DNA of 41,064 nucleotides from Candidatus Helarchaeota archaeon. Its GTDB lineage: Archaea > Asgardarchaeota > Lokiarchaeia > Helarchaeales > RDOG01. Under the pieces are notes generated by a model. The model saw nothing but the letters and a program-made list of their open reading frames with translations, had not been told where the DNA came from and ran no database searches. The stretch spans positions 1-41,064 of the forward strand of contig JALGVI010000097.1 of assembly GCA_029838215.1 (NCBI GenBank), read 5' to 3'. Positions within the stretch are counted from its first letter, which is position 1; every line of letters starts with the position of its first letter. A program made the translations under genes and the position numbers. Of this stretch, positions 1,202 through 40,775 are shown one piece after another.

Positions 1202-1280
1202 CAATAAATTTGGAGTGATTTGAGTACGAAGGAGAGTTTGAATTGTTTTTTTTTGAATATAAGAATTGGGAGCATTCAAG

Positions 1281-2303: not shown

Positions 2304-2307
2304 TGTC

Positions 2308-3206: not shown

Positions 3207-3312
3207 ATCCAATGTTTTAATTTAAAATTGATATAAATAAATCACAGATTTGGATAATCTAGAAGATATTGGAAAAAAATCAAAATTGAAGGAATAAAAT
3301 AAAAAATGGATA

Positions 3313-5793: not shown

Positions 5794-5797
5794 TGGT

Positions 5798-6646: not shown

Positions 6647-6683
6647 CTTAAATTCCCATTTATTTAAAATGAAATTAAAAAAA

Positions 6684-7328: not shown

Positions 7329-7350
7329 TGAAATTCTTGAGATTTTCGGT

Positions 7351-9777: not shown

Positions 9778-9901
9778 ATAGTTATCCACTTCCGAATTTA
9801 AAAAATTCCGTTTCAATTTATCTTTTTTTATAAATTCATAGGAAGTTATTAATCCCTTCCAATCAAAATGATATTGAAGATTTTAGTATAAAAGTTTTTT
9901 C

Positions 9902-23618: not shown

Positions 23619-26049
23619 TTTGCACTTGCCTTAGATTTAGGATTTTTTCTTTAGCTTCGTTCATTGCGTGGTCAAAAAGAATGCGTTCTTTTGCATCAAG
23701 GATTAGCGTGAGGTTGATGTTTTCATCGTTCATTTTAAATTCTTGAAAGATATCATTCAGACCAGTCATGAATGCGGGTCGGTATTTAGCGGGCTCGAGC
23801 AATCTTTGGAAATATAATTCATAGATTAGCGGGTCGAGTATTTCCCTGTCGAAGAAGTTGAACAGGTCCGTCTCTTCGATTTCTTTTAGGAAGATTAGAA
23901 TTTTCACGACCAGAACGATGACTTTTCGTTCGAACGGCGTTGGTTTTGGGATTGGAAACTGGTTGAGGTGCGAGATCTTGATTTCTGCATAAATTTGCTT
24001 TCCCCTCGGATGGATCAGGTGAAAGAAAAAAGTCATTAACGTGGAATTGATCACGCCCAAGAGATATTCAAGAGACCATATTTTATCTTTTAACGTGCAT
24101 GTGAAAAGGTTATTGCTCACGTAGAACGAGTTCCGGTCCAGAGCGGCTTTGATTTGGTATCCCGTGCGGCAGATTAATAGTTTCGGCATTTCAAAATATT
24201 CGGGTTTTCCGAATCCCGCATATTCGCCGCGTGTTTTGTCGACCAATGCGGGGTCGTAACGCACGTATCGTCCTTGCCAGGTAATGTGGTATCGTTGCAC
24301 TTCGCCGCGCCCGAATATGAGCGGTCTTGCGTGAGGAACCGATGAATCAGTCGTGAAGATCTTGTTTCTCACGTTTCCGGAGTGTATTCCTTCGTGGCAG
24401 GAGAGGATTTCCTTGAGTGGCATCCCGCGATTCTGGATGTTCTTGAGTGTTCGCCATCGTTCGAGAGTCAGGTCTAAATTGAACTTATAATCGGGCATTT
24501 CGTGAAAGAGGTTTTGGGGAACTCTGGATGCATGGATGGTGAGATCGGGAAGTTGACGCACGAGGAGCATTTCGTGAAAATCCCTTTTAATTTCGTCCTG
24601 TTCACGTTGTCCCGTGAAGACCGCGGCGTACATTATGACTTGGTCGAATTTCAAGCCAACATGTTCCAGGGATAGAATGCGGAAGTGGGACAGGAGAAAG
24701 TAGCGAGTTTTAGGGTAATTTTTATGGAGCAATATGTCGGGGACTAAGAATGAGAGCACGCCATCGTCAGTCAGTAGAAAGGTGCTTCTCACGAGAAAAA
24801 GGAAGAAAAGATCCATTCGTGTTTCTCTCAGGTATAGATTTCTATAAATAACCTTCTCGATTTCCGAGAAGTGAGATCCCCATGGTGGGTTTCCGAGTAT
24901 GATCTTGAATCCCCAGCCCCTGTTAAACGGCTTCGGGAATGCCTTGATCCAGTGCAGGATTTTTTGTTTCGTCATGAATTGCTTGATTTCCCGTTCTTGA
25001 AGGTATTCGGAATTTTTTTCAAGCATGTCATGCAAGTACGTGCCGAATTCGGTTCCCTTGAAAAACGGTTCACGGTGAGCGTCCCTGAAATCATAACCGA
25101 GCAGGCTATTTCCCGCCATTAATGAGTTTAACTTTGGAAACAGCCGGATGTCTTCGACCTTGTTGATGTATCGCAATAATGATACCCATATCCGCAGCTT
25201 GCAATTTTCAACTGTGCATTCATCGAGTTCAACGCCGAAGATGTTTTTATCATAGATTTCTGATGCCAGTTGAAGGTCCTGCTTCGGTTGCACGGCCTGA
25301 CTCGAATCGTTGAAAAGGATCTTTTTAGTCAGGTCAAATAAGAAATCGTGGGCAGAGACGAGAAATTCGCCTGAACCGGCAGAGGGATCCAGTATTGTCA
25401 ATTCGGAGATGAGTTGATAAATGCGGTCTTTCTTTGCGGGATCTTCTCTTAAATTCGGGAACGATTCGAGTGAGATATCCGGTTTTTCTTCTGCGGGAAA
25501 TAACTTTTTGAGTAGATATTTTTCAATTGCCGAAGATGCGATTTTATTTACCAATTTTGGGGGGGTATAATAAACGCCTCTTTGTTTTCTATCTGAAGAA
25601 CCAAGTGCAATTTCCCCAAGAGTTCGGGGTGAGATCACGCCTTGTTCGTTTGAATCATCGAAAGACCATTGAATGGAATCGAGCGTGTTGTAAATCGCCG
25701 TGATGATTTGATTTGGAATCTCGGGTTGTTTGGGAGCATCAGGGTTAGCCGATCTAAAAAAACGGAATGAATCAGCGGGATCATCTACGGCGGGGTCCAG
25801 CGTTTTCATCACTTCATCATGAAAGTCATGGCTTGCAGGCGTGCTTGATTTCAATTTTTCCATCATTTCTTCTTTTTTTCGAATGGATACTTGCAAAAAA
25901 TAATGGAAGATGAATTGATTTAGGATTTTTTGAGCTTCAAGATTCCGTTTAGCATCATCGGGGATGAAGTGGAGCATGGAATATATGGTTTCACGATATT
26001 TCTTCATCAGGTCAATAAATTTTTGTTGTTCTTCGGAACGATGAGCCAT
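23578..26049 (-). CDS. N6-adenine DNA methyltransferase, Eco57I/TaqI-like (gamma class) with its own TRD and no evident nuclease domain
   Basis: GVYYTP, ILDPSAGSGEFL (motif I), IFGVEL, GNSL, GNPPW (motif IV), TaqI-C-like PKLLICRTG..YLLGVINSTL. Confidence 0.9.
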   Translation of the reverse strand: MAHRSEEQQKFIDLMKKYRETIYSMLHFIPDDAKRNLEAQKILNQFIFHYFLQVSIRKKEEMMEKLKSSTPASHDFHDEVMKTLDPAVDDPADSFRFFRSANPDAPKQPEIPNQIITAIYNTLDSIQWSFDDSNEQGVISPRTLGEIALGSSDRKQRGVYYTPPKLVNKIASSAIEKYLLKKLFPAEEKPDISLESFPNLREDPAKKDRIYQLISELTILDPSAGSGEFLVSAHDFLFDLTKKILFNDSSQAVQPKQDLQLASEIYDKNIFGVELDECTVENCKLRIWVSLLRYINKVEDIRLFPKLNSLMAGNSLLGYDFRDAHREPFFKGTEFGTYLHDMLEKNSEYLQEREIKQFMTKQKILHWIKAFPKPFNRGWGFKIILGNPPWGSHFSEIEKVIYRNLYLRETRMDLFFLFLVRSTFLLTDDGVLSFLVPDILLHKNYPKTRYFLLSHFRILSLEHVGLKFDQVIMYAAVFTGQREQDEIKRDFHEMLLVRQLPDLTIHASRVPQNLFHEMPDYKFNLDLTLERWRTLKNIQNRGMPLKEILSCHEGIHSGNVRNKIFTTDSSVPHARPLIFGRGEVQRYHITWQGRYVRYDPALVDKTRGEYAGFGKPEYFEMPKLLICRTGYQIKAALDRNSFYVSNNLFTCTLKDKIWSLEYLLGVINSTLMTFFFHLIHPRGKQIYAEIKISHLNQFPIPKPTPFERKVIVLVVKILIFLKEIEETDLFNFFDREILDPLIYELYFQRLLEPAKYRPAFMTGLNDIFQEFKMNDENINLTLILDAKERILFDHAMNEAKEKILNLRQVQIIQEFLSSMFRNS

Positions 26050-26053
26050 GAAA

Positions 26054-28177
26054 TCATCCTTTTAAATTTTTAACAGCATCTTGAATCACGTTGATATCTT
26101 CGGCATCCAATCCGAAGCATTCATGAATTAATTTATCGAGTGCTTGTCTTGAATTGCTGCATTTTTCTGAATCGAGTGGAGTTCCTGCTCGAATTTTAGT
26201 GATTAATAGATCGACTTGTTTCGTGATTTGAGACTGTAGTTTAGAATCAGGGGGGAAAATGGGCATCATCTTCACGTGTTCAATCAGTATGCGCGGGAAA
26301 ATCTCTTTTTCTTGGAATAGCTTGAGATAAAGATAATTGAACAGCGTGGAATTAAGGAGTGCAAGGATGTTTTTCAATGAGTACCTGTTGTTGGTGAGAG
26401 TGATGTTATATATTGTTTGAAGCGTGCTCATCTTGCCTTCTTCGTCGATGCTTGCTTGGAGTTTTTTCCCTAATTGGCGCAAGACGATCTTCGGCGTGAA
26501 GTAGAGCGATTTTTTTTGCAATGACTTTTTGTCCACGTATTTGAATGGAGGTCTGATGATGTATGGTTGTACGTTGTTTCCACTGAGAATGGGAACGTCA
26601 GAGGGATGTTCGGGCGCATCTTTAAGTAGCGGAGCCGTTTTTCCGAGTTCTTCCCCCCGATGGATCTCGATTACTTGAGATAATGGCGTGTTTCCATTTA
26701 ACAGCTTCATTATTAGTTCCTGTTCTTGTCTTGTAAGAAATGGAAAAGAGTTCTTATATGTTCGTTGAAAAAATGCCTGAGCGATCCCGAGGCGTTTTCC
26801 CGAATCTTGTTGAAGCTGAAGCAATGAATCGGATTTGGTGAAAATGAATTCCCCACTTGCAGGGTGTTTACTTTTTTGCAGGATTAAAATGATGTTTGCG
26901 ACTTTGGGATCCTCAAAGACGCCTTTAACTTGGTGAATTTCTAGGATATTTGTTTCATCCAGGACCATTTTTCGAATGGATGCAAAGTTACTTCGAATTA
27001 AAAACGATTCGGGTATGATATAACCGAGATGACCTTTTTGTTTTAGGAGTTCAATACCCCGTTCCAGAAACAACGAATACAGGTCAAATTGTCCACGAGC
27101 GGTTTTAAAAGACTTCCGAAAGTATTCTTTTTCGATGTCATGAATTTCTTTCGAACTCAAGTATGGCGGGTTTGCCATCAACACGTCGAATCCACCTGCT
27201 TCGATGATTTCGGGGCATGCCAGTTCGAGCGATTTTCCGGTTTTTTCGTGCCTTTGTATTTCATTATTTTTTCGCAGGGCATCCCCAACGTGAAAATTCG
27301 TGAGGTCGGGCATCTTGTTGCAGCGTTCATGGAGTAATAGTAAAATAAGACGAATCTTGAATATTTCGACGGAGATATCTTGGATGTCCATTCCGTACAG
27401 GTTATTCTGGATCACTTCAAGTAGAAATTCCTGTCTTGACACGGCGTGAGAATGGGCGACGTGAGTTTCGTAAAATTCCAACAGAACTCGCAAAGCATTC
27501 ATGAGAAATGCTCCGGAACCCATTGATGGGTCAAGGATCTTGATGTTTAATTTATTTTCATTGGAGCAATAACGTGCTAAAATGTCATCAGATAATAATT
27601 TTTTACAAATCCAGTCCGTGATGATGGTCGGTGTATAGAATGAGCCTGTCTTGTCGGTTTTTTTTCGGGATTTATTTCGAATGCTTTTTTCCAAGAACTG
27701 CTCCAATATCTTGGGCGTGATCACGTCGTTGTTAGCTTCAAATTCGTTTAATGACCACTTGAATTGCTCTAACAATTTGAATAATGTCCGCTTTTCACGT
27801 GCGTGAAGCCAAACGTCATCGGGCATGAAGAGCGTCTTTTCGAATTTTGAACACTTGAACAGTGAGCTTCGGAAAAAAAAGGCGTTTTCATCTTTGGAGT
27901 TCAGGGGAAGTTTCACGCCATCAGAAAACAGGATCATTTTAGGGAGTAGATGGTCTTGAAAGAAATTTTCATAATTATTGCGCGTGAACTGGATTTGAAG
28001 AGCCATTTTTGGAATGAATCCGGATCGTTCGAGGAATTTCAATACCAAGATGCGAGATAACAAGATTTGGGGGAAATTTGATGGTGATTCTTGGTCCGTG
28101 GTGGACATGAAGGTTTCGATTTTTTCGTGAAATTCGGTCAGGATGTTCAAGAGAATTGAATTTTTATTTGAGATCAT
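26054..28177 (-). CDS. Second N6-adenine DNA methyltransferase, Eco57I/TaqI-like with TRD and no evident nuclease domain
   Basis: GSFYTP, ILDPSMGSGAFL, LYGMDI, FDVLMANPPY, DLYSLFLERG, PKIVLRQL..LALLNSTL. Confidence 0.9.
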   Translation of the reverse strand: MISNKNSILLNILTEFHEKIETFMSTTDQESPSNFPQILLSRILVLKFLERSGFIPKMALQIQFTRNNYENFFQDHLLPKMILFSDGVKLPLNSKDENAFFFRSSLFKCSKFEKTLFMPDDVWLHAREKRTLFKLLEQFKWSLNEFEANNDVITPKILEQFLEKSIRNKSRKKTDKTGSFYTPTIITDWICKKLLSDDILARYCSNENKLNIKILDPSMGSGAFLMNALRVLLEFYETHVAHSHAVSRQEFLLEVIQNNLYGMDIQDISVEIFKIRLILLLLHERCNKMPDLTNFHVGDALRKNNEIQRHEKTGKSLELACPEIIEAGGFDVLMANPPYLSSKEIHDIEKEYFRKSFKTARGQFDLYSLFLERGIELLKQKGHLGYIIPESFLIRSNFASIRKMVLDETNILEIHQVKGVFEDPKVANIILILQKSKHPASGEFIFTKSDSLLQLQQDSGKRLGIAQAFFQRTYKNSFPFLTRQEQELIMKLLNGNTPLSQVIEIHRGEELGKTAPLLKDAPEHPSDVPILSGNNVQPYIIRPPFKYVDKKSLQKKSLYFTPKIVLRQLGKKLQASIDEEGKMSTLQTIYNITLTNNRYSLKNILALLNSTLFNYLYLKLFQEKEIFPRILIEHVKMMPIFPPDSKLQSQITKQVDLLITKIRAGTPLDSEKCSNSRQALDKLIHECFGLDAEDINVIQDAVKNLKG

Positions 28178-28199
28178 TTAGGATCGTCCAACCGGTTTT

Positions 28200-29045
28200 T
28201 CATTCCTTGCGCAAGATCAAGATATTTTGATGAACCATTGATGGAACGTAAGCGTATGGATATCCGTAGACGTGGAGGCGCCGTTCAACGTCATACCATA
28301 CAATATTGGCTTTTAGGACATAACCCGCTTCAACGAGTTCTCGTGCCAGTTCGGCGTGCAAGAGGTGGTATTGGCTTCCACGATACATGTCTCCAACGAA
28401 AACTGCACAATAGCCCTTATGACGCAATTTTGAAAGGGTTTTTTCAAATACCTTTTTCATGGTGGAGAGCCACTCCTGTTTTGACGTGAGTTTATCACTG
28501 CCAAAATTCTGCAATATGCTTGCGGCGACGTTTCCTTTTTGTATGTTGCTTGCACCTCTCGTATGTTCGAGCTTGTCCATGTTCCAATACGGCACGTCGG
28601 TCAGCACGAAATCAAATTGGTCGTCCTTGATTTCATCAAGTTTGTTAGTGGCATCTCCAATAATGGTTTCCTGTTCTTCAAGACCTTCAAGAGAGCATAT
28701 TTCCTTATATATTTCCACCCATTTTGGGTTTATCTCGATTCCCAGGGCAGTCCGCCTGCCGCGTCCGTTTTTTTCACATAACGAGGCACCGAGCAGGGTT
28801 CCTCCCACGCCCATTAGTGGGTCAAGTATGCGTGCGCCCGATTTCGTAAAAATGCGTATCAAGTCCATGCACATGAGAGGGGGTTTATTTCCACCATGTT
28901 GCTTGCGTTTTTCGAATTGACAATGCTTGTTATAGTGCTTGTTAAAGACGCTCTTTGAAAAGAACTTCCATTCTTTCCCCGTCAGGTCGTTCAATTTATT
29001 TCGGGGGTCATATCCGCCTCTTGTTTCGTTCTTTTTTGATGCCAT
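28200..29045 (-). CDS. Amino-DNA methyltransferase (N4-C/N6-A family) with motif I before motif IV
   Basis: NKLNDLTGKEW N-terminus, H..NKP, ILDPLMGVGGT (motif I), GIEIN, GDA, VLTDVPYW (DPPY variant), IVW. Confidence 0.85.
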   Translation of the reverse strand: MASKKNETRGGYDPRNKLNDLTGKEWKFFSKSVFNKHYNKHCQFEKRKQHGGNKPPLMCMDLIRIFTKSGARILDPLMGVGGTLLGASLCEKNGRGRRTALGIEINPKWVEIYKEICSLEGLEEQETIIGDATNKLDEIKDDQFDFVLTDVPYWNMDKLEHTRGASNIQKGNVAASILQNFGSDKLTSKQEWLSTMKKVFEKTLSKLRHKGYCAVFVGDMYRGSQYHLLHAELARELVEAGYVLKANIVWYDVERRLHVYGYPYAYVPSMVHQNILILRKE

Positions 29046-32899: not shown

Positions 32900-32989
32900 A
32901 AGTTATAACTTTGAGATTAATTGTAATAACAATTAAATTTAAATATATTTGTTACAACAAATGTTATAACATTGAAGATGTTAATACAT
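32900..32989. promoter_or_regulatory. Array of five palindromic (T/A)GTTATAAC(A/T)-like boxes upstream of the island operon
   Basis: AAGTTATAACTT 32900-32911 (perfect), TTGTAATAACAA 32921-32932, TTGTTACAACAA 32949-32960, ATGTTATAACAT 32961-32972 (perfect), ATGTTAATACAT 32978-32989. Flanked or interleaved by TATA-like CTTTATAAAA (32881) and TTTAAATATA (32938). Confidence 0.7.
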
Positions 32990-33020
32990 TTAATGGATTG
33001 AAGAAAAGGGAAGAGTAATA

Positions 33021-34076
33021 ATGTCTTATGACAATAATTTATCTGACAATGAAACAAATGTTAAGTCAGAAGAATTCAAACAGTGTGATAACTGTAAAAC
33101 AACAAAAAGAAAATTATATCGAGTTAAAGATTTTGAAAATGGTCATATCGATAACTTATGCTACGATTGCAGATTCAATAGGTTTTTTGGACGAACCTTA
33201 CAAGAAATCTTAGATGATTCTGATGGATTTATTGTTGCACAAGAACTTTTTCAACTAGTTCGTAATGGTACCTATCTTGCACCTTATTCCCAAATCGCAA
33301 ATTATATTTATTTTGCATTTATTTCAGGTCAAATAAAAGACGGAAGTATATTGAAAGCAATTTTTGAAGATAAAAAGAATATATCACAGTTTAGTGAAAG
33401 AAGAGATGAAATAGTAAATAATCTTAAACGGGCTCACATCATCGACAGAGAAGATCAAGAAAAATTTTATTTTACACAAAAATTTTTAGAATTGCTCTAT
33501 AAATACCAAGATAAATCCGATGAATTATTTTCACGAATTTTAGGTTTGTGTCTAGTTAACATAATCTCATATAGTAAATATGATTCAACAATGAAGCAAA
33601 TATGGCTTAGATCTTTGACTAGCAATAAGATTATTAATAGAAACACTGGGGAGGCAGACGAAGAAAGATTAGTACAAGAAGTTGAAAAATATCGGTGTCT
33701 TGAATGTAATAGATTAATAGAAACAAAGGAACAAGCTATTGAACATTTGAAGGTTGATGAACATATTGATCTACCAAGAGAAGATCAATATGATAGACAT
33801 CTTGAGCCTATTTTTGAAGCCATTGGTTATAAGTTATATGTTAGTGAATTGGAAAAAACGATTCAAAGGCGAATGTCACCTTCCGCTTTTATGAAATTCT
33901 TTTCGGATGGAATTAATGCAAATTTCTACTTCTACTCGAAAAAGGGAGAAAAACTTATTAAAGAGGATGAAGACGGAAGAAGGTATTTCATTGTTAAGGC
34001 ACCATGGATAAGAGTTATGTGTAAAACCTTAGAAAAAATGAAAGAATTGGAATTAACAAAGGGGATTACAAGCTAA
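33021..34076 (+). CDS. Zn-finger / putative tandem winged-helix protein
   Basis: N-terminal CxxC..CxxC (CDNC, CYDC), internal C2H2-like CLEC-x12-H-x4-H. Two wHTH-like segments (RDEIVNNLKRAHIIDREDQEKFYFT; MSPSAFMKFFSDG..DGRRYFIV). The wHTH call is inference. Confidence 0.6.
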   Translation: MSYDNNLSDNETNVKSEEFKQCDNCKTTKRKLYRVKDFENGHIDNLCYDCRFNRFFGRTLQEILDDSDGFIVAQELFQLVRNGTYLAPYSQIANYIYFAFISGQIKDGSILKAIFEDKKNISQFSERRDEIVNNLKRAHIIDREDQEKFYFTQKFLELLYKYQDKSDELFSRILGLCLVNIISYSKYDSTMKQIWLRSLTSNKIINRNTGEADEERLVQEVEKYRCLECNRLIETKEQAIEHLKVDEHIDLPREDQYDRHLEPIFEAIGYKLYVSELEKTIQRRMSPSAFMKFFSDGINANFYFYSKKGEKLIKEDEDGRRYFIVKAPWIRVMCKTLEKMKELELTKGITS

Positions 34077-34823
34077 ATGGTACGATTAGATGAAGTACAA
34101 GAAATTCCTCTTCTTGGTAAATTTCACAACGATATATGCTCAAAATGCGTCTCCCTTATTAAACATCAATGCAATAATCGTATTAGTGATGGTGTGAAGG
34201 GAGTTTTATTCTACGGAGTTCCAGGAAATGGAAAAACGACTACGTCCTTCAAAATCATTGAGAAGATCTTTGCGGAATTGGGTCAAGGAATTGATTGGAA
34301 AGAGCACATGATATATACAGATTGTGGTGACCTTGCACATTATCGTTATGGAGAGACTGAACAAAAAATAAGAAACGTTTTTAAAAGAGGACAAAATAAG
34401 ACAAAATCTATAGTACCTATAATTTATATCTTTGATGACGCAGATGGTTTATTTATTACAAGAGATTGGGGCGTAAAACTTGAAGCATGGTATCTAGGGC
34501 ATTTAAATGTTTTTTTTCATCAGATTGATAATCTAGATACAAAAAAAGAATTTATAATACTAACTACCAATCGAGTTGATTTAATAGATAATGCAATAAG
34601 GGATCGATTATACGAAATCGAATTTCCAGAACCTAGTTTGGATGTTAAGATAGAATTATTAAAATACAAAACACGAAAATTAAAAATTGATAAAGATATT
34701 CAAAAAAACATGTTAAATATACTTTCTAAGGATAAAAATATAAAATCGTTAAGAGATGTCGAAAATTTTGTTCTCATGAAATATTTGGATGAGATCTGGA
34801 GGAAAGGAGGTTCTTTTGATTAA
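34077..34823 (+). CDS. Minimal single-domain classical AAA+ ATPase (CDC48/Vps4/Pch2-like clade)
   Basis: GVLFYGVPGNGKT (Walker A), pore-loop-like YRYGETE, IYIFDDADGLF..R (Walker B with D in place of E), SRH TTNRVDLIDNAIRDR, IEFPEP. Confidence 0.9.
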   Translation: MVRLDEVQEIPLLGKFHNDICSKCVSLIKHQCNNRISDGVKGVLFYGVPGNGKTTTSFKIIEKIFAELGQGIDWKEHMIYTDCGDLAHYRYGETEQKIRNVFKRGQNKTKSIVPIIYIFDDADGLFITRDWGVKLEAWYLGHLNVFFHQIDNLDTKKEFIILTTNRVDLIDNAIRDRLYEIEFPEPSLDVKIELLKYKTRKLKIDKDIQKNMLNILSKDKNIKSLRDVENFVLMKYLDEIWRKGGSFD

Positions 34824-35166
34824 AATTGGTGAATTCGATTATTTTTTAATTGAAGTTACGAATATGGAAGATAAAAATGATTACGAACTTTTAAAGAATT
34901 TATGCAGGAAGATTGCGCTGAAATCAGAAGTAATCGACTATAATATTAAGTATAAGGAAAGAAAAGCGTTAATAGAAGTTAAAAACTCTTCAAAAGCAAT
35001 ATTTTTAATGCATTTAATTTATAAAGAATTTAAACCATGGGTTTTAATTAAGGGAATTAAAAAATTGTTTAAGTCAGATTTTCCAAAAGAGATTTTTGGA
35101 GATGATTTTTTACCAAAAAAGTGGAATTCAAAGTTAAATAGTATTATTCATAATCTGGTTCATTAA
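34816..35166 (+). CDS. Hypothetical small alpha/beta protein (116 aa)
   Basis: TTG start at 34816, 5 nt after an AAGGAGG RBS, overlapping the AAA stop. Co-oriented in the operon. Confidence 0.7.
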   Translation: MIKIGEFDYFLIEVTNMEDKNDYELLKNLCRKIALKSEVIDYNIKYKERKALIEVKNSSKAIFLMHLIYKEFKPWVLIKGIKKLFKSDFPKEIFGDDFLPKKWNSKLNSIIHNLVH

Positions 35167-35182
35167 TAATTGGTGAAATAGA

Positions 35183-35317
35183 ATGAAAATATTCAATGAG
35201 GAAGAATTAGAAAAGATTGAAAAAGATATAATTGATACCCTAAAGGAGCTTAAAAGAACTAGTAGAAGTAATGCTCAAAAAATTATTGAGGAGGCTATTG
35301 AAAATGCTATCAATTAA
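35183..35317 (+). CDS. Small 44-aa helical protein missing from the ORF track
   Basis: MKIFNEEELEKIEKDIIDTLKELKRTSRSNAQKIIEEAIENAIN*. GGTGA RBS upstream, fills the gap exactly, overlaps the SMC-like start by 14 nt. Confidence 0.65.
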   Translation: MKIFNEEELEKIEKDIIDTLKELKRTSRSNAQKIIEEAIENAIN

Positions 35318-37241
35318 TGTGACAAATATTGGAGGATTAGATGGGTCAAATGAATTTAAATTTACGGAAGGATTGAATATCATACGTGCCCCAAATGCTT
35401 CGGGAAAATCTAGCCTAATAAACGCCTTTAAACTGGCCTTAAGTGGACCTGATTTTACAAATTTTAAAAATCTCAACGAATTTTTGAGTGATTTTAAAGA
35501 TTCAGGTCTAATTCATATCAAGTTGAATGGTAATATTGTAGATTTACGAATTGAAAGAAAAAAAGATGGAAAAGTGGTTATATCAGATTATAAAAGTAAT
35601 TTTAATTTCTTAGACGATAAATTAACACGGTTAATATTTTTTGATCAGTTTTCAGAGATTTATCAGACGATTATTTCTGGTGATAGTAAAAAGTTTCAAG
35701 ATTGGATCGCAAATATTACAGATATCAAACTTTACCTTATTGCTAAAACATTAATAGATAATAAAGAGAGTGAGTTAAAAACACGATTAGCGCACCTTAC
35801 CGAACAAGAGGCAGGAAAAAAAGAAATTTTAGGTGAGCAGCTCCACATCAATACTGAGGAATTAAAGAAATTAAAAAAAGAACGGGAAAAATTGTTGCAA
35901 ACTAGTGAAGATACAGAATTGAAATCTAAGTTACAGTCCATAAATAAAGAATTTGATAAAATAACCAAAGGTTTAAAAGATTTTAAAAAGAAAAAAACGA
36001 ATATTTCTCAAAAATTGCTGAAATTGAATAAAGAAAAAAGTAACATTGATTTAAAAATAAAAGAAGATATCGAAAAACTCGAAAAGGTTAAAATAGAATT
36101 GCTAGAGGTTGAAGGAACAATAGATAAACTAGAAAATACTCTTATTAAGTTAGAGGACGAAAATAATTCTCTCAGGATTGAATTAAACGGAACTATTAGA
36201 AAAGTGAATGGAAAAAAGAGAACTATCGAGGGATTACGAGAAAAATTAAAGGCCAAGGAGAGAAGAAGAAAAAATCAACGTTCATTATTTAATTATATTG
36301 AATGCCCCACTTGTTTTCAACCTCTTGATCAGGAAATATTGAAAACAAATGTAAAGAAAATTGATGCAGAAATAAAGAGTTTAATAAATGAAATTGAAAA
36401 ACGAGAGATAAAAATAAATTTAAACAAATCTCAAATTGACAAGATAAAAAATAAGCTAGAAAAAGCAAAAACAGAACTACCTAATATGAAGAAATCTTTA
36501 GAAAAACAAATAGAAGAGAATAACAAGGTATTTAAAGGCATCAATGATGAGATTGCAAAACTTGAAACAAAGATACCAGAAATAGATAGAAAAATTTCAG
36601 ATCTTGAAAATAAATTTGAATCAATTCAAAAAAAGAAAAAGAAATTGTCGGTAAATTTGGATAAAATTAGAACAGAATATACAGAAATTGACCAAAAAAT
36701 AGAAGATAAAAAAGAAGAAATTGAAGTTCTGGAGGAAAAAATTAGAAAATTAGAGCAAGACACAGAAATAGTACAAAACCTTAAAATAAAAACTCAAGCA
36801 TCAAATGAAATAAAAAATCACTTTCAAAAGAAGATTGAGCTCATTCGCAATGACATAATAGGCACAATCAACGATGAAATTTTAAATTGTTTTACGTTAT
36901 TAGAATTGGCAGAAATAAATTATCTTTCGATTGAAGCAGGGACTTACGAACTGGAAATTCGAAGAAAATTAGGGAGAAAGACAGAGTTACTTGAATTGTC
37001 CGCCGCAGAACGTACTTTAGTGGCATTAATAATCCTTTATATTACGAAAAGAGTCTTATTACCAGACGTTCCACTATTTTTCATAGACGAGACAGCAAAT
37101 GCTTTTGACGATACAAGATTTCAAAGAATTATACATTATTTAGCAAAAGAAGTGAATACGCTTATATTAACAAAAAATGAACCTTTTCAAGGAAAAAGGG
37201 GGGAAATTATCACTCAAAAGAATATTATTCATAGTTTTTAA
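35304..37241 (+). CDS. Rad50/SbcC/Sph-like SMC-family ABC ATPase with Zn hook (645 aa)
   Basis: ATG at 35304 after GAGGAGG. INVTNIGGL, Walker A APNASGKS, long coiled coils, central CPTC hook, signature LSAAERT, Walker B FFIDE, D-loop AFD. Confidence 0.92.
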   Translation: MLSINVTNIGGLDGSNEFKFTEGLNIIRAPNASGKSSLINAFKLALSGPDFTNFKNLNEFLSDFKDSGLIHIKLNGNIVDLRIERKKDGKVVISDYKSNFNFLDDKLTRLIFFDQFSEIYQTIISGDSKKFQDWIANITDIKLYLIAKTLIDNKESELKTRLAHLTEQEAGKKEILGEQLHINTEELKKLKKEREKLLQTSEDTELKSKLQSINKEFDKITKGLKDFKKKKTNISQKLLKLNKEKSNIDLKIKEDIEKLEKVKIELLEVEGTIDKLENTLIKLEDENNSLRIELNGTIRKVNGKKRTIEGLREKLKAKERRRKNQRSLFNYIECPTCFQPLDQEILKTNVKKIDAEIKSLINEIEKREIKINLNKSQIDKIKNKLEKAKTELPNMKKSLEKQIEENNKVFKGINDEIAKLETKIPEIDRKISDLENKFESIQKKKKKLSVNLDKIRTEYTEIDQKIEDKKEEIEVLEEKIRKLEQDTEIVQNLKIKTQASNEIKNHFQKKIELIRNDIIGTINDEILNCFTLLELAEINYLSIEAGTYELEIRRKLGRKTELLELSAAERTLVALIILYITKRVLLPDVPLFFIDETANAFDDTRFQRIIHYLAKEVNTLILTKNEPFQGKRGEIITQKNIIHSF

Positions 37242-37308
37242 TCCCATAATTTAATTCTTTGGTATTTCGCGATTAACTCTTTTAAATTTCAGTTGAAGAG
37301 GGAATAGT

Positions 37309-39084
37309 TTGGTAAATTGTGATTTTTCATTTGAATCAAAAAGAACGACCCTATTTGGACTTACCCAGAATAAAAGTTCAGCTCCAGTAATTCCTGAAAA
37401 ATTTAAAGTTATTCAAAAAATCGAGAAATGTATTGTTTCATTAAACCAAGAATTCTGTTTTACAGAAGAAACAGATAAACTTAATGAACTTATCAAAATT
37501 GCGCAAATAGTATTTTTAAAAGGCTATGGAAGACTAAGAATACAGAGAGATAAGAATAATAAACTTGCACAATTATCAATTCGATTTGCCATAGAGAAAT
37601 TAAAGATTGAAATAGAAAAGGAGTTGATTGATCGATTTACATACTGGAATATTCAATTGTATGGGAAATTTTTTCATCTTCTTGAAATTGAAGAAAAAGC
37701 CTATCTTAAGCAAAAAGATATCGTAAAAGATTTCTGGTTATATTCAATGTATCAAGATATGGTTAATGATTTAGAAATTGCAGAAAATTTCCAGACTTAT
37801 AAGGAAATTGAAGAGATTTTTTCACAATTGGTGATAAAAGGGCTTCATATCGGAAAAAATTTATTTAATATTTATTATTATTGTATTGCAGCTGTGATTA
37901 TCGATGATATTTTTGAAGATAGTAACAATAACATAACTCCAGAATTACTATTTGATATTTTAAAAGTCGAATCGAAGATGTATCAGAATTTGATAAAGCA
38001 AATATTTGAAATAAAAGCTTTGATCCATTTTGAATTTGAAAAAATGATATGTAAAAATGATCAATTAGGTATTATCGGGAAAAAAAAGGAAGATAAGTTA
38101 TTAACTGAGATAGAAAAAAGGAAGAAAAACATTATTGACAATGAAATTGATTTGATTCCAACAGAAAAAGAGAAATTGATAATTACCAGCGATTTCAATT
38201 TTGAACTTCAAAAAATTAGTAAAAAAATGTTCAATTATAAAGATTATTTTAAGGAAGTTACACTAGATTCGGTTATATTTTTTCTTTATAGATTTTTAGA
38301 GACTAATTTGATAACCGATTATAACCAAATTCTAAAGATAATTTATACTTCAATTAATATTTTTGATACAAATGTTATAACTTCCTTTGAAAAGTGGTTT
38401 AATGAAGATTTAAATGTCGATTCAATGTCAGGGTTCGATTTGAGGAATTCGGATGAATTACAAAAGTTATTAGATGAATTTCTTAATATAAATCAATTTC
38501 TAAAGAAAAAACGATATTCTAATAAAATAAAGATACGTGATTCAATATTGGATTATAAATTAGGTAAAAAGAAATCTCATTTAACGGAAATAAAAAAATA
38601 TTTTGTAAATTGTAGAGATTTGATCAAAAAGAAACCAACAAAAGAAGAAATTCTCATTTTTTTTAATAATTTGAATAAATTAATTGAAAATAATCAACAA
38701 TTGAATCCAGACAGTTTACTCGTTTTATGTTCGCTCCTAAATCACATCAATAAATCATCCATTGATATCGTACTCGACCCGAAAATGATTTATAACATCT
38801 ATTTGTTGATTATTAATGAATTTCGTAAAAATCGTAAGATTAGAAAAGTGAAATTAAAGTCTATTAAGATGTTATTAAAAGCAATTATTACTTATGACCA
38901 ACCTTTAATTTTATGGTTTACAAAGAATTTCATCAAAAGGAAGCAGATTAATGAGGAATTTATATTATTTTTAGAGAATTATACGGATAGATTAAAAATT
39001 AATTTGTATTCTCAAATATTTTACGGAAAAGACTCATTCTCTCAGATTTACGAACAAAAAACATTAGAATATTTTTTAAAATAG
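37309..39084 (+). CDS. Hypothetical predominantly alpha-helical protein (591 aa)
   Basis: Long AT-rich ORF, I/L/K/N/E-rich amphipathic helices, no motif recognised. TTG start after GAAGAGGG. Confidence 0.7.
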   Translation: MVNCDFSFESKRTTLFGLTQNKSSAPVIPEKFKVIQKIEKCIVSLNQEFCFTEETDKLNELIKIAQIVFLKGYGRLRIQRDKNNKLAQLSIRFAIEKLKIEIEKELIDRFTYWNIQLYGKFFHLLEIEEKAYLKQKDIVKDFWLYSMYQDMVNDLEIAENFQTYKEIEEIFSQLVIKGLHIGKNLFNIYYYCIAAVIIDDIFEDSNNNITPELLFDILKVESKMYQNLIKQIFEIKALIHFEFEKMICKNDQLGIIGKKKEDKLLTEIEKRKKNIIDNEIDLIPTEKEKLIITSDFNFELQKISKKMFNYKDYFKEVTLDSVIFFLYRFLETNLITDYNQILKIIYTSINIFDTNVITSFEKWFNEDLNVDSMSGFDLRNSDELQKLLDEFLNINQFLKKKRYSNKIKIRDSILDYKLGKKKSHLTEIKKYFVNCRDLIKKKPTKEEILIFFNNLNKLIENNQQLNPDSLLVLCSLLNHINKSSIDIVLDPKMIYNIYLLIINEFRKNRKIRKVKLKSIKMLLKAIITYDQPLILWFTKNFIKRKQINEEFILFLENYTDRLKINLYSQIFYGKDSFSQIYEQKTLEYFLK

Positions 39085-39153
39085 AAAAAATATAAAATAT
39101 AGGCATTCTTTTCAAGAAGTCGATTAACACGATTTCATTCTTCATTAAAGAAC

Positions 39154-39522
39154 TTATAAATGAGATCGTCTATAATTGAGAACGTCTTTATACTCTTTGT
39201 CGAATTTTGATTCGGACAATAATACCAATTCAAACTTCCCACCAGCTCTGAAATTCAAATGGACAACATTGTAGTGGCTCCCCGGATATATTTTTTCTAA
39301 TGGAAAATTACTTTTTAAAACGTTAATCAATTTTGGATAGAATTCTCTACGATTCGGATTTCCTGAAACAGCGAATATCACATCCATATCACTATCAGGG
39401 CGGTGTGTTCTTCTGGCTCGGGAACCGTGTGGTGCGATTCTTGAAACTTTTAAATTTGAGTTCTTCATCACGTTTGTAATAGATATCCATTTAGAATGAT
39501 AATGTTCTTCGGACATACTCAT
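39154..39522 (-). CDS. Stand-alone Pol-beta-superfamily nucleotidyltransferase (MNT-sized; OAS/CD-NTase/CCA-head-like topology)
   Basis: HGSRARRTHRPDSDMDVIF (GS...DxD), with a third carboxylate in KFELVL. 122 aa. Confidence 0.85.
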   Translation of the reverse strand: MSMSEEHYHSKWISITNVMKNSNLKVSRIAPHGSRARRTHRPDSDMDVIFAVSGNPNRREFYPKLINVLKSNFPLEKIYPGSHYNVVHLNFRAGGKFELVLLSESKFDKEYKDVLNYRRSHL

Positions 39523-39860
39523 CCCTCTCTTTGTCGAAATTTGCTAGAACAATTCCGACAATTTGAATATTGATGGTTTATAGTGATTTAGTTAAGAATA
39601 GAATAAGTTATAAAAATTTTTGTTAAATATGAAAAATAACTAAGGCAATATTTCAAAAAAATAATTAAATTTCCATCAAGGAAAGGAGAAAAATTATCAA
39701 GTTTTTCATAATTTACTCACTATTCTCCTTTAGAGGATAAAACGTAAATTGTTTTTAAGAAATTGGATAAATTTATACGAATTCTTCTCAATAAATCATT
39801 AATTAGCATTTTTTGAAGAAGGTTGAACAGGTCATAAAATTATTCGAGTATGTGATTCTC

Positions 39861-40775
39861 ATGAAAAAAATTGATATAAAACAAGAAGGACAAAGTCTCT
39901 TAAAGCACCATGCCTTTTTATACGAATTTTTGATAAAAATTCCAGAAACTAGAGAGATAATTTTCATCGAAGACACAGAAAATAGGAAAAAAATAGGAAA
40001 ACCCCGGTTTAAAAGGTCCAAATATCATTGGTCAGTGGAATTATTAAAATTTCTTCGAGATCACTTACAAAATATATGGAATTTTCTTTACAAGTACTCC
40101 TATTGGTTTGATGAGACAATTTATCCTCTTATTGCTTATGAAAATAGAAGAATTTCAAAAAAGTCAATAATTTTTTTATTAGAAGAAGATGTTTGGTCAA
40201 CAGATGAGGTATATGGGAATTATCTTATCGAAAAAAGTAAAGAAGAAACAATTATCAGTTATTTTCGTAGAAGAAAAAAGATTAAACAGTTCAAATTACC
40301 ATCAACAAATGATAATGAAATCAAAAGATGGATCTGTAATAACGCAGTTAAACAAATCCAAGATCAATTTGATTTTTTATGGCTTAAACTAAAAACGGAA
40401 ATAGAAACGTGTATAGAAGAAACCTACCATCGAGAACCTAAATTAATTCTCACTACGGAATATTTACGAGATCAATTAAGGAGAACGAAAGATATTTCAG
40501 ATGATTGGTCAGAAGCAGCTTTACTTAGTTTAGGAAGAATCATTGAATTATGGTTGCTAAAATTACTTGGAAAGGAAGAGAAAAAAATCTATCATGATGA
40601 AGATATTATAAGAAGTGCAGAAATAGAAGGGATTATTAATAAGCACGAAGTTCGACTGTTAAATAAAATTAGAAGAGAGTACAATAATCTTAAGCATAAA
40701 TTATATTATAAAATAAAAAAAAATATTGTGGTTGATTTAATAGAGGATTTTTCTAATCTTTTTCTTAATGGATGA
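39861..40775 (+). CDS. Protein with a C-terminal HEPN/DUF4145-like domain (degenerate catalytic motif)
   Basis: WSEAALLSLGRIIELWL..IIRSAEIEGII..LLNKIRREYNNLKH fits the DUF4145-type HEPN pattern, with Y where R of RN-x2/3-H is expected. Start is uncertain (TTG 39813, GTG 39852 or ATG 39861). Confidence 0.6.
   Translation: MKKIDIKQEGQSLLKHHAFLYEFLIKIPETREIIFIEDTENRKKIGKPRFKRSKYHWSVELLKFLRDHLQNIWNFLYKYSYWFDETIYPLIAYENRRISKKSIIFLLEEDVWSTDEVYGNYLIEKSKEETIISYFRRRKKIKQFKLPSTNDNEIKRWICNNAVKQIQDQFDFLWLKLKTEIETCIEETYHREPKLILTTEYLRDQLRRTKDISDDWSEAALLSLGRIIELWLLKLLGKEEKKIYHDEDIIRSAEIEGIINKHEVRLLNKIRREYNNLKHKLYYKIKKNIVVDLIEDFSNLFLNG

What the first reader, a model, noticed from the sequence alone, without database searches (positions are those of the whole stretch)
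33021..39084. Candidate new SMC-based system: Zn-finger/wHTH + minimal AAA+ unfoldase + two microproteins + Rad50-like Zn-hook ATPase + long helical protein
Seen: five tightly coupled genes (0-nt gap, 8-nt overlap, 16-nt gap, 14-nt overlap) followed 67 nt later by a 591-aa helical ORF, all in an AT-rich island. The SMC-like protein has a CPTC hook and full ABC motifs, but no Mre11/SbcD phosphoesterase, JetD Toprim, Lamassu-type effector or Dnd gene is adjacent. Known: Wadjet/MksBEF use SMC plus wHTH (kleisin/kite) subunits, and Lamassu/ABC three-component systems use Rad50-like ATPases with small partners. A classical AAA+ unfoldase is not a standard part of these; Pch2/TRIP13-like AAA+ occurs in CBASS type III with HORMA proteins. 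Inference: a DNA-scanning SMC complex whose wHTH or small subunits are remodelled by a dedicated AAA+, acting in anti-plasmid/anti-virus defence or element segregation.
Basis: partly seen in the sequence, partly recalled or inferred. Interest (0 to 1): 0.82.

Follow-up and report, generated by a model that had tools for sequence, protein, structure and literature searches.

The report
Archaeal SMC-like ATPase operon with AAA+
Six tightly packed genes in an Asgard archaeon encode a known type of archaeal SMC-like DNA ATPase (ASRP, the coalescin/Sph family) together with partners not described in the papers searched: a zinc-finger/winged-helix DNA binder, a small Cdc48-like AAA+ ATPase and two tiny subunits. 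The set recurs across archaea, moves between genomes and often lies among anti-virus genes.

Summary

The "Rad50-like" protein belongs to the archaea-specific SMC-related protein (ASRP) family of ClsN/coalescin and Sph. So the core is a known family, not a new SMC type.

What looks new is its fixed company. The order Zn-ribbon/wHTH/C2H2 protein, classical AAA+ with an invariant Walker-B DD, ferredoxin-like ~120-aa protein, ~44-aa microprotein, ASRP is kept in 10 distinct loci, at identities down to about 25%. Sister versions, with other wHTH proteins, a histone or a DndC-like enzyme, occur in Asgard, Thermoplasmata, Thermoprotei, Nitrosotalea, Nanoarchaeota and Methanocellales.

A 12-bp palindrome, ATGTTATAACAT, is conserved upstream of four diverged cassettes. 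The 591-aa protein is specific to one sub-lineage.

The cassette is a compositional outlier. It sits beside CRISPR-Cas, methyltransferases and an MNT-like gene here, and beside Mokosh-, CBASS-, PARIS-like and PDC-S01 genes elsewhere. It does not map onto Lamassu, Wadjet, Dnd or Sph-RdfA.

Function is untested. I favour control of foreign DNA (~0.45) over chromatin organisation or mobile-element maintenance.

This scan found the same operon family earlier on other DNA (histone/273-aa variant). This Zn-finger variant was not noted before.

The parts
32900..32990 (.). Operator-like array of GTTATAAC-core palindromes (AAGTTATAACTT at -121 and ATGTTATAACAT at -60 from the ATG, plus degenerate copies) in the promoter region of the cassette
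   Evidence: The same 12-mer or 8-mer core occurs two or three times within about 135 nt upstream of the homologous first gene in L022, L024 and L020, although the L020 proteins are only 26-49% identical. The 12-mer occurs only twice in the 3.6-Mb genome, and the other copy lies inside a metabolic ORF.
33021..34076 (+). 351-aa DNA-binding subunit: N-terminal C4 zinc ribbon, winged helix (~69-183), second alpha/beta region carrying a C2H2 finger (~220-266), C-terminal long helix
   Evidence: Invariant C22, C25, C47, C50, C226, C229, H242. AF2 model pLDDT 77, pTM 0.71. wHTH matches at Z 5-6.5 and AFV1p06 zinc finger at Z 6.5. The family is rare: about 20 full-length representatives in 1.84 billion proteins. 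It is found in all 10 type-A loci.
34077..34823 (+). 248-aa classical-clade AAA+ ATPase without an N-domain; Walker A GxPGNGKT, invariant Walker B FDDADG (Asp-Asp), pore-loop-like [RK]YGETE, one SRH arginine
   Evidence: PF00004 E 1e-16. Best solved relatives are Cdc48/p97 D2 and NSF, E ~2e-17. Motif table over 40 homologues. Lies next to an ASRP in 27 distinct loci.
34816..35166 (+). 116-aa (125 aa from the ATG at 34789) ferredoxin-like beta-alpha-beta-beta-alpha-beta subunit with a conserved C-terminal DFPKEI...KW tail
   Evidence: AF2 model pLDDT 80. NikR C-domain/ACT/RAM-like matches at Z 8-8.7. An iterative HMM joins it to the ~120-130-aa proteins of the sister operons, and every hit lies just upstream of an ASRP. 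hhalign E 3e-4.
35183..35317 (+). 44-aa helical microprotein, translationally coupled to the ASRP (14-nt overlap); weak RHH-like match
   Evidence: 65-68% identical in L022 and L024. A 43-66-aa ORF ends at -10 to +46 nt of the ASRP start in nearly all non-ClsN ASRP loci. Family HMM covers types A and A'. RHH_1 E 6.5e-4, just under the cut-off. Complex prediction with the ASRP gave weak support.
35304..37241 (+). 645-aa ASRP-family zinc-hook SMC-related ABC ATPase (ORF open from 35271)
   Evidence: NF045487 ASRP E 4e-74, 250 bits over the whole model, below the 300-bit cut-off. PADLOC LmuB 3.5e-21, PbeC and DndD weaker. Motifs. Forms a supported clade with the other type-A/A' ASRPs (99/96).
37309..39084 (+). 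591-aa protein of no known family; lineage-specific sixth gene
   Evidence: No Pfam, NCBIfam or PADLOC hit. Nothing from the Atlas. Homologues only in L022, L023 and L024 at 37-40% identity, while the other five proteins are 54-76% identical there. In L024 it is fused to a wHTH and a beta-helix. Absent from L020 and L025, where a TFIIB-core protein follows the ASRP.

Best explanation
The locus is a horizontally acquired, self-contained operon. It encodes one variant ('type A') of a conserved archaeal machine built around an ASRP-family zinc-hook SMC-like ATPase.

Shown: the gene set, its conserved order, the families and folds of five of the six proteins, the conserved upstream palindrome, the patchy and mobile distribution, and the defence-rich neighbourhoods.

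Inferred mechanism. ASRP dimers joined at the zinc hook bind DNA with their ABC heads. The ferredoxin-like ~120-aa protein and the ~44-aa microprotein are constitutive ASRP subunits; they occupy the gene position that LmuC holds before LmuB and that the Mre11/SbcD C-terminal Rad50-binding part holds before Rad50/SbcC. The Zn-ribbon/wHTH/C2H2 protein supplies sequence- or structure-specific DNA binding. It, or the microprotein, probably also represses the operon through the ATGTTATAACAT boxes. The DD-variant AAA+ ring acts as a slow switch or remodeller that loads, resets or releases the complex. The 591-aa protein is a swappable lineage-specific adaptor or output module.

I think the most likely biological role is surveillance and silencing or exclusion of foreign DNA (SMC-based immunity), not housekeeping chromosome folding.
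For: Family and module. ASRP match E 4e-74. Type-A order ZnF-AAA-p125-micro-ASRP in 10 distinct loci at 22-76% identity. AAA+ beside an ASRP in 27 loci from Asgard, Thermoprotei, Thermoplasmata, Nitrosotalea, Nanoarchaeota and Methanocellales records.

Subunit inference. Stop/start overlaps with SD-like motifs. A microprotein ends at the ASRP start in nearly all non-ClsN loci. A p125-like protein always lies directly upstream.

Complex prediction, ASRP + p44: weak support. Score 0.60, best of 3 controls 0.00. The mark was reached by 58 of 80 solved complexes and 2 of 110 mismatched pairs, but at 0.60 or under by only 7 of those 80 and by both mismatches that passed. The runs agree in at least 100% of contacts, and the partner's pLDDT is at least 82. 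My own alignments were used, so these counts hold only roughly.

DNA binding. wHTH and C2H2 folds. Conserved palindrome upstream of four diverged cassettes.

Mobility. 27.5% GC against 38.6% for the genome; only 0.8% of 2-kb windows have 30% GC or less. Flanks differ in every locus. Two diverged copies occur in one MAG. ASRPs above about 180 bits appear in only some 30 places among 400 genomes of the phylum.

Defence context. Cas1, Cas3, Cas7b, Cas8b and three methyltransferases on the same contig, and an MNT-like NTase next door. Elsewhere: MkoA (L061), PDC-S01 plus PIN plus HNH (L022), CBASS-like cyclase plus SAVED effector (L025), an AriA/PtuA-like ATPase (L059).

Nearest defence-library families are the SMC-like LmuB, PbeC and DndD. 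Sister operons carry a DndC-like PAPS-reductase/4Fe-4S gene overlapping the ASRP stop.
Against: No nuclease, protease, Sir2, TIR or other recognised effector was found in the cassette, and the 591-aa protein is unassigned. The characterised ASRPs act in chromosome compartmentalisation (ClsN) or rod-shape determination (Sph3 with RdfA), not in defence (PMC9389158, PMC10869688). The sister operon carries a histone-fold doublet, and two type-A loci carry a TFIIB-core protein, which fits chromatin or transcription roles as well. The defence-island association is qualitative: about 6 of 10 loci, with no matched control. An archaeal member of a 'defence' ATPase family (Cran1, OLD family) was reported to act in the cell cycle (PMC12796447, abstract as listed; paper not read). 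The Walker-B DD may mean that the AAA+ barely hydrolyses ATP. Binding of p44 has only weak in-silico support, and no interface was given.
Confidence: 0.45

Rival explanations
1. Chromatin or chromosome-organisation module. This would be a coalescin-like ASRP complex that compacts or compartmentalises host DNA, with the wHTH/Zn-finger protein as loader and the AAA+ as unloader. It would have no immune role.
For: The family includes ClsN, which shapes chromosome compartments in Sulfolobus (PMC9389158). Type-B sister operons start with a histone-fold doublet. Type-A loci L020 and L025 end with a TFIIB-core protein. On the midpoint-rooted tree, ClsN-type ASRPs group with an AAA+-linked ASRP from a genome of the same class (99/99). 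No effector domain was found.
Against: Patchy presence even within one class. Strong compositional anomaly. Every locus has different flanks. Two diverged copies occur in one MAG. Frequent neighbours are defence genes. The palindrome is not enriched genome-wide, so no genome-wide loading sites of that sequence exist.
Confidence: 0.2
2. Maintenance or partition module of an integrated plasmid or virus. The upstream palindromic boxes would act as a centromere/operator. The ZnF protein or RHH-like microprotein would be the centromere-binding protein, and the ASRP plus AAA+ the NTPase machinery that segregates or protects the element.
For: Repeated palindromes lie directly upstream of the operon and are conserved across diverged cassettes, as in par loci. 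p44 has a weak RHH match. The AT-rich island runs to the contig end and carries an MNT-like gene of the kind found in toxin-antitoxin pairs. In L020 the cassette follows Cdc6-like, RPA-like OB-fold and RadA genes and many small ORFs.
Against: No relatives of the ZnF protein or the AAA+ in 2.9 million viral contigs. No tRNA in the window, and no integrase or Rep family among the listed family matches of the type-A flanks (only the 25 commonest families are shown). The replication-type neighbours of L020 are not seen in L022, L024 or L025. No partition system built on an SMC-like ATPase is known to me (own knowledge).
Confidence: 0.2
3. Cytoskeletal or cell-shape role like haloarchaeal Sph3-RdfA.
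For: Sph3 is an ASRP and needs its neighbour RdfA for rod formation. The pairing of ASRP with a small neighbour gene is conserved in haloarchaea (PMC10869688).
Against: No cassette protein matched any NCBIfam model at E<=0.1 other than ASRP/SMC-type and AAA+ models, apart from one weak SfsA hit for p125 at E 0.079. Whether that library holds an RdfA model was not checked, and no RdfA sequence was on hand. Three DNA-binding modules and a conserved operator point to DNA work. The defence-island and HGT pattern is as above.
Confidence: 0.05
4. A diverged copy of an already described SMC-type defence system (Lamassu, Wadjet or Dnd/Pbe), with all parts accounted for.
For: PADLOC LmuB 3.5e-21 over the full length, with PbeC, DndD and JetC weaker. 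Small genes precede the ATPase, as LmuC precedes LmuB (PMC12663957).
Against: The ASRP model scores far higher (250 bits against 74 for LmuB). No LmuA, LmuC, JetA, JetB, JetD, DndA/C/E or PbeA/B/D model hits any neighbour. The AAA+, the ZnF protein and p125 have no counterpart in those systems.
Confidence: 0.03

Closest known systems
ASRP family (archaea-specific SMC-related proteins: Sulfolobus ClsN/coalescin, Halobacterium Sph1/2, Haloferax Sph3; Yoshinaga, Nakayama & Inagaki 2022, PMC9389158; NCBIfam NF045487)
   Same: Size of about 600-650 aa. N-terminal Walker A and C-terminal Walker B head halves. Central antiparallel coiled coil with a CxxC zinc hook. Full-length match to the family model. 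Clusters with other ASRPs, including ClsN-type ones, on the tree.
   Different: It scores 250 bits, under the 300-bit cut-off, and belongs to a separate clade (type A/A'). It is embedded in a fixed operon with an AAA+, a Zn-finger/wHTH protein and two small proteins. The family paper reported no consensus among flanking genes, and Sulfolobales-type ClsN loci lack these neighbours.
Lamassu (LmuA-LmuC-LmuB)
   Same: A short SMC/Rad50-like ATPase preceded by a small DNA-contacting partner gene. LmuB models are the best defence-library hit. Defence-island context.
   Different: No LmuA effector and no LmuC match. An AAA+ and a Zn-finger/wHTH protein are present. The ATPase is closer to ASRP than to LmuB.
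DndD-DndE dyad / Pbe (phosphorothioation systems; PMC10853773)
   Same: A coiled-coil ABC ATPase tied to a small, possibly RHH-type protein. Sister ASRP operons carry a DndC-like PAPS-reductase/4Fe-4S gene.
   Different: No DndC, DndA or DndE match in this window. The microprotein precedes rather than follows the ATPase, and its RHH assignment is sub-threshold.
Wadjet/MksBEF and Smc5/6 (SMC + kleisin + KITE)
   Same: An SMC-superfamily ATPase plus a wHTH-containing accessory protein. The wHTH of the 351-aa protein aligns with Nse1/Nse3 and JetB at Z 5.5-6.4. Its C-terminal half weakly resembles a DUF3375 cluster, a domain I recall as that of JetA (own knowledge).
   Different: These scores are no better than those for ordinary wHTH regulators. 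There is no JetD/Toprim, no recognisable kleisin, a zinc hook instead of a hinge, and an AAA+ that none of these complexes has.
Cdc48/p97-type classical AAA+ ATPases; TRIP13 of CBASS type III; IetA
   Same: PF00004 fold, Walker A, sensor-1 Asn, one SRH Arg and an aromatic pore-loop residue. PADLOC TRIP13 4e-11 and IetA 4e-10.
   Different: A single 248-aa module without an N-domain. Invariant Walker-B Asp-Asp. No HORMA partner, since p125 is ferredoxin-like, and no IetS protease.

Membership tests
ASRP (NF045487) | Full-length match to the family model above the curated cut-off | tested here: inconclusive
   E 4.1e-74, 250.3 bits, model positions 1-590 of 593, but the cut-off is 300 bits. The next best model, arcadin-4, scores 61 bits.
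ASRP (NF045487) | Split ABC head (N-terminal Walker A, C-terminal signature and Walker B) separated by a long coiled coil | tested here: met
   Invariant P30 N31 G34 K35 S37, S566/E569 and D595 across 12 homologues. Coiled-coil Pfam hits over about 190-530.
ASRP (NF045487) | CxxC zinc-hook motif at the coiled-coil apex | tested here: met
   C334 and C337 are invariant (CPTC in the window).
ASRP (NF045487) | Groups with ClsN/Sph rather than Rad50, SMC or DndD in phylogeny | tested here: inconclusive
   It clusters with 35 other ASRPs, including ClsN-type ones, but no Rad50, SMC or LmuB outgroup was included. Model scores favour ASRP (250 bits) over Rad50 (50), SMC (50) and DndD (38).
Lamassu | LmuB SMC-like ATPase | tested here: inconclusive
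   PDLC03859 LmuB E 3.5e-21, 74 bits, full length, which is much weaker than the ASRP match.
Lamassu | LmuA effector (nuclease, protease, Sir2 and others, with a conserved CTD) in the operon | tested here: not met
   No PADLOC or Pfam hit of that kind for any cassette protein.
Wadjet / MksBEF | JetA kleisin, JetB KITE and JetD Toprim genes next to JetC | tested here: not met
   No JetA, JetB or JetD model hit. There are only weak JetC hits to the coiled coil. Structural resemblance of the wHTH to JetB/Nse at Z 5.5-6.4 is within the generic wHTH range.
Dnd / Pbe | DndC (PAPS-reductase-like, 4Fe-4S) and a DndE partner adjacent to the ABC ATPase | tested here: not met
   Absent from the window. 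A DndC-like gene is present in sister operons L018, L062, L063 and L082.
Mre11-Rad50 / SbcCD | Adjacent Mre11/SbcD phosphoesterase | tested here: not met
   No metallophosphoesterase match in the cassette. Rad50 models score 50 bits or less.
CBASS type III TRIP13-HORMA | HORMA-fold partner of the AAA+ | tested here: inconclusive
   The p125 model is ferredoxin-like (NikR/ACT/RAM, Z 8-8.7), and no HORMA entry is among the listed matches. The other small protein has only 44 aa. The 351-aa model gave wHTH and zinc-finger matches. The 591-aa protein was not folded.
Classical AAA clade (PF00004) | Walker A, Walker B hhhhDE, sensor 1, SRH arginine(s), aromatic pore loop | tested here: inconclusive
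   PF00004 61.7 bits against a 21.2-bit cut-off. Walker A, sensor-1 N, one Arg and the [RK]YGETE loop are conserved, but Walker B is invariably DD, not DE, in types A and B.
KITE proteins | Tandem winged-helix domains that dimerise and bind a kleisin | tested here: inconclusive
   One clear wHTH (69-183) and a possible second (186-338; SarS two-wHTH alignment Z 5.5). No sequence relation to the 273-aa wHTH proteins of type B. Dimerisation and kleisin binding were not testable.

The most novel reading that the evidence does not exclude
A new class of SMC-based DNA-control machine, widespread in archaea and perhaps ancestral to coalescin. In it a zinc-hook ASRP with two obligate mini-subunits is targeted by interchangeable DNA-binding proteins (Zn-finger/wHTH, double wHTH, histone, TFIIB core). 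It is switched by a dedicated Cdc48-like AAA+ ring with a hydrolysis-attenuated DD Walker B. It serves as an immune or silencing system against foreign DNA in the lineage closest to eukaryotes.
Probability: 0.3. Interest if true: 0.85.

Novelty: new variant of a known kind. Interest (0 to 1): 0.68.

Why it matters
ASRPs are the main SMC-like proteins specific to archaea. They include coalescin, which shapes Sulfolobus chromosomes. The family paper reported no consensus among flanking genes, and apart from haloarchaeal RdfA I found no partner proteins described in the papers searched.

A fixed set of partners would give the first parts list for an ASRP holocomplex. That set comprises two mini-subunits, a DNA-targeting protein and a dedicated AAA+, which no known SMC complex has. 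The list is directly testable by co-expression, cryo-EM and ATPase assays.

If the role is control of foreign DNA, this adds an archaeal branch, including Asgard archaea, to SMC-based immunity alongside Wadjet, Lamassu and Smc5/6. If the role is chromatin organisation, it links SMC-like loop or compartment formation with histones and AAA+ remodelling in the closest relatives of eukaryotes.

The conserved 12-bp operator gives an immediate handle for DNA-binding experiments.

Tried and rejected
- Pfam, NCBIfam and PADLOC gave nothing for the 351-, 125- and 591-aa proteins beyond weak zinc-finger hits.
- ESM Atlas feature search gave no usable hit for the 351- and 591-aa proteins.
- The word-indexed homologue search for the 591-aa protein returned only itself, because low-complexity words swamped the candidate list. 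It is therefore no evidence of uniqueness.
- Foldseek against the PDB gave no match at E<=1e-3 for either model.
- Atlas fold search of the 351-aa model gave only wHTH-type rows with TM<=0.33 by query. One was a weak DUF3375 row, which I keep as a lead only.
- hhalign of the ZnF351 family against the 273-aa family of type B showed no relation.
- Viral contigs (IMG/VR) held no relatives of the ZnF protein or the AAA+.
- No tRNA was found in the window. The sigma-70 promoter scan was at shuffle level and does not apply to archaea. One terminator-like hairpin follows the sixth gene at 39116-39136, but the count is at shuffle level.
- Sequencing runs: none was listed and no RNA holder was listed, so expression could not be examined and read laying was not used.
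- I tested whether the palindrome is a genome-wide loading site. It is not enriched: 2 copies of the 12-mer and 31 of the 8-mer against about 35 expected. The second 12-mer lies inside a metabolic ORF.
- The idea that the triad (p125-like, microprotein, ASRP) is universal to ASRPs is rejected. Sulfolobales-type ClsN loci lack it.
- The HORMA, kleisin or LmuC identity of p125 got no support from the fold matches listed.
- The RHH identity of p44 remains sub-threshold, and no monomer fold was available.

Full report
**1. The observation**

The six ORFs are present as described.
- The 351-aa gene ends one base before the 248-aa gene starts.
- The third gene can start at the ATG at 34789, or at the TTG at 34816.
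- The 44-aa gene starts 16 nt after the third gene's stop.
- The SMC-like ORF is open from 35271. Its homologues align from the Met at 35304, which follows GAGGAGG and overlaps the 44-aa gene by 14 nt.
- The 591-aa gene starts 67 nt after the SMC-like gene's stop.

The cassette has 27.5% GC in a genome of 38.6%. Only 0.8% of the genome's 2-kb windows have 30% GC or less. The window is a whole 41-kb contig of a 3.6-Mb Asgard MAG. Close homologues are labelled Helarchaeota or Promethearchaeota.

**2. What the proteins are**

*The SMC-like protein.* It matches NCBIfam NF045487, 'archaea-specific SMC-related protein', over the whole model (E 4e-74, 250 bits, cut-off 300). It scores far above Rad50, SMC and DndD models. 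In PADLOC its best hits are LmuB (3.5e-21), PbeC and DndD. Across 12 homologues the Walker A, the CxxC hook, the signature Ser/Glu and the Walker B Asp are invariant. The H-loop His is replaced by Lys or Arg. ASRPs were defined by Yoshinaga et al. (PMC9389158) and include ClsN/coalescin and Sph1/2.

*The 248-aa protein.* It is a classical-clade AAA+ (PF00004). Its best solved relatives are Cdc48/p97 D2 and NSF. It has no N-domain. In all 39 type-A and type-B homologues examined the Walker B reads hhhhDD (FDDADG and variants), not DE. The one type-C AAA+ aligned keeps DE. A [RK]YGETE pore-loop-like motif and one SRH arginine are conserved.

*The 351-aa protein.* It has an invariant CxxC...CxxC ribbon and a C2H2 finger. 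Its AF2 model (pLDDT 77, pTM 0.71) shows a winged helix at about 69-183. That domain aligns with IscR, CRP-type and MarR-type regulators, and equally with Nse1/Nse3 and JetB (Z 5.5-6.5). The finger matches the AFV1p06 zinc finger (Z 6.5). These values are generic for wHTH domains, so kite or kleisin identity is open. A DUF3375 cluster appears only weakly in the Atlas search. The family is rare: about 20 full-length representatives among 1.84 billion proteins.

*The 116/125-aa protein.* It folds as a ferredoxin-like beta-alpha-beta-beta-alpha-beta domain (pLDDT 80; NikR C-domain/ACT/RAM matches at Z 8-8.7). It has a conserved C-terminal DFPKEI...KW tail.

*The 44-aa protein.* It appears helical from its sequence pattern; no monomer model was made. 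It has a sub-threshold RHH match (E 6.5e-4).

*The 591-aa protein.* It matches nothing.

**3. Is the set conserved?**

Yes. The full six-gene order is kept in two metagenomic lineages (L022/L023 and L024). There the first five proteins are 54-76% identical and the sixth only 37-40% identical.

The first five genes are kept at 22-52% identity in L020, L025, L071, L073, L084 and L096. They are also kept in a Desulfurococcaceae MAG (L072), which has two paralogues of the Zn-finger protein. That makes 10 distinct 'type A' loci. One MAG holds two diverged copies. In L020 and L025 a TFIIB-core protein takes the sixth place.

More distant variants exist:
- Type B: histone-fold protein, one or two 273-aa proteins, DD-AAA+, ~120-130-aa protein, ~55-65-aa protein, ASRP. 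It occurs in Asgard, Thermoplasmata, Nitrosotalea, Nanoarchaeota, Methanocellales and one Thermoprotei genome.
- Type C: a 412-aa AAA+ with DE, a 45-aa protein and an ASRP, often with a DndC-like PAPS-reductase/4Fe-4S gene.
- Type A': p125-like protein, microprotein, ASRP and a DndC-like gene.
- Type D: triad only, with no AAA+.

An iterative HMM started from the p125 family recruits the type-B ~120-aa proteins. Every hit lies directly upstream of an ASRP (hhalign E 3e-4). A 43-66-aa ORF ends within -10 to +46 nt of the ASRP start in nearly all these loci. Sulfolobales-type ClsN loci lack all of this.

On an ASRP tree, types A and A' form a supported clade (99/96). ClsN-type proteins group with an AAA+-linked ASRP from a genome of the same class (99/99). 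The tree is midpoint-rooted and has no outgroup.

DD-AAA+ homologues in Binatia and other bacteria, and in Nitrososphaerales, sit with cupins or a KaiC/GvpD-like ATPase and have no ASRP. So the AAA+ family is not restricted to this partnership.

**4. Regulation**

The first-stage note on GTTATAAC-like boxes (e1-5506139) holds and extends.
- ATGTTATAACAT or its 8-10-bp core occurs two or three times within about 135 nt upstream of the first gene in the window, L022, L024 and L020. This holds although the L020 proteins are only 26-49% identical to the window's.
- The 12-mer occurs twice in the whole genome. The second copy lies inside a metabolic ORF.

This is a conserved local operator. It is presumably bound by a cassette-encoded DNA binder. 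It is not a genome-wide loading site.

**5. Do the small proteins bind the ASRP?**

Genetic coupling argues for it. A complex prediction of ASRP + p44, with alignments, gave weak support:
- Score 0.60, best of 3 controls 0.00.
- The mark was reached by 58 of 80 solved complexes and 2 of 110 mismatched pairs.
- At 0.60 or under it was reached by only 7 of those 80 and by both mismatches that passed.
- The runs agree in at least 100% of contacts, and the partner's pLDDT is at least 82.
- My own alignments were used, so the counts hold only roughly. No interface was reported.

**6. Context and mobility**

Flanking genes differ in every locus. On this contig the cassette shares space with Cas1, Cas3, Cas7b and Cas8b and three methyltransferases. 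An MNT-like nucleotidyltransferase lies next door.

Other type-A loci lie within 6 kb of:
- MkoA (L061);
- PDC-S01, PIN and HNH (L022);
- a CBASS-like cyclase with a SAVED effector (L025);
- an AriA/PtuA-like ATPase (L059).

That is about 6 of 10 loci, without a matched control. No relatives were found in IMG/VR viral contigs. In low-GC Asgard genomes the cassette's GC matches its host, which fits transfer into this 38.6%-GC genome from a low-GC relative.

**7. Interpretation**

Firmly supported: this is a type-A member of a conserved, mobile archaeal operon family built on an ASRP.

The mechanism is inferred and is set out under Best explanation. The role in foreign-DNA control is favoured by context, patchiness, HGT, similarity to LmuB/DndD/PbeC and the DndC-linked sister operons. 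It lacks an identifiable effector and any experiment.

The rivals remain open:
- Chromatin organisation, supported by the coalescin precedent and the histone and TFIIB-core companions.
- Mobile-element maintenance, supported by the centromere-like boxes and the Cdc6- and RPA-like neighbours in L020.

A paper on archaeal OLD-family Cran1 (PMC12796447, abstract only) warns that 'defence-like' ATPases can have cell-cycle roles in archaea.

**8. Known or new**

The ATPase family is known. I found no paper describing its AAA+, wHTH or mini-subunit partners. The library lacks most subscription journals, including the 2020 ABC-ATPase classification, which I could not read.

Earlier follow-ups in this scan reached the same reading for the histone/273-aa variant and for a six-gene variant on other genomes. 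Look-ups with the 351-aa protein and the ASRP returned no note on other DNA, and the AAA+ look-up only an unrelated one, so the Zn-finger variant was not noted before.

I class it as a new variant of a known kind: an SMC-like complex with a new accessory set.

Noticed in passing
window 39154-40775: A divergent pair right after the cassette, in the same AT-rich island. One is a 122-aa MNT-like nucleotidyltransferase (Polbeta/NTP_transf_2; PADLOC PDC-S09 3e-7). The other is a 320-aa protein with a weak DUF4145 match at its C-terminus.
   Followed up: partly
window 1266-9816 and 23578-29045: The same contig holds a type I-B CRISPR-Cas set (Cas1, Cas3b, Cas7b, Cas8b by PADLOC) and three adjacent DNA methyltransferases. 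The contig is therefore defence-rich.
   Followed up: partly
L019 8001-8732 (= L069 6001-6732, Helarchaeota LW55_61): A 76%-identical copy of the DD-AAA+ stands alone, without ZnF, p125 or ASRP genes. It lies next to a small Ras/Arf-like GTPase and an INSIG-like membrane protein. It may be a remnant or a second use of the ATPase.
   Followed up: partly
L086-L093, L097 (Binatia, Deltaproteobacteria, Terriglobales MAGs); L094, L095 (Nitrososphaerales): Homologues of the AAA+ at 30-37% identity sit in a conserved cupin-cupin-AAA-bicupin arrangement (Pfam-checked in L087; same ORF sizes in L089 and L092) or beside a KaiC/GvpD-like ATPase (L094). There is no ASRP. The AAA+ family seems to serve other clients too.
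   Followed up: partly
L062 11810-13678, L063 7191-8912, L082 9046-10812, L018 12437-13810: A DndC-like PAPS-reductase/4Fe-4S gene overlaps or follows the ASRP stop in several sister operons. This links part of the ASRP family to a Dnd-like DNA-modification chemistry.
   Followed up: partly
L020 11204-11794 and L025 9188-9997: A TFIIB-repeat (cyclin-fold core) protein of 196-269 aa directly follows the ASRP in two type-A loci. Only the two TFIIB repeats match, and at 196 aa the L020 protein has no room for an N-terminal zinc ribbon. It could be a promoter-binding decoy or targeting subunit.
   Followed up: no
L100-L114 compared with L108: Sulfolobales-type ClsN genes stand alone. Their nearest neighbour on the ASRP tree is an AAA+-linked ASRP from a genome of the same class. 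This hints that coalescin descends from an AAA+-linked operon. No outgroup was included, so direction is unproven.
   Followed up: partly
L058 and L061 (G229 contigs C82 and C68): One Promethearchaeota MAG carries two diverged type-A cassettes. One of them lies next to a Mokosh MkoA-like gene (E 4e-169).
   Followed up: partly
L078 (= L015): The record title of this contig names a bacterium (Candidatus Deferrimicrobium). The genome was served as a same-order relative of the Asgard MAG, and the contig carries a histone-fold gene and an ASRP operon. The public label is probably wrong, or the bin is mixed.
   Followed up: no
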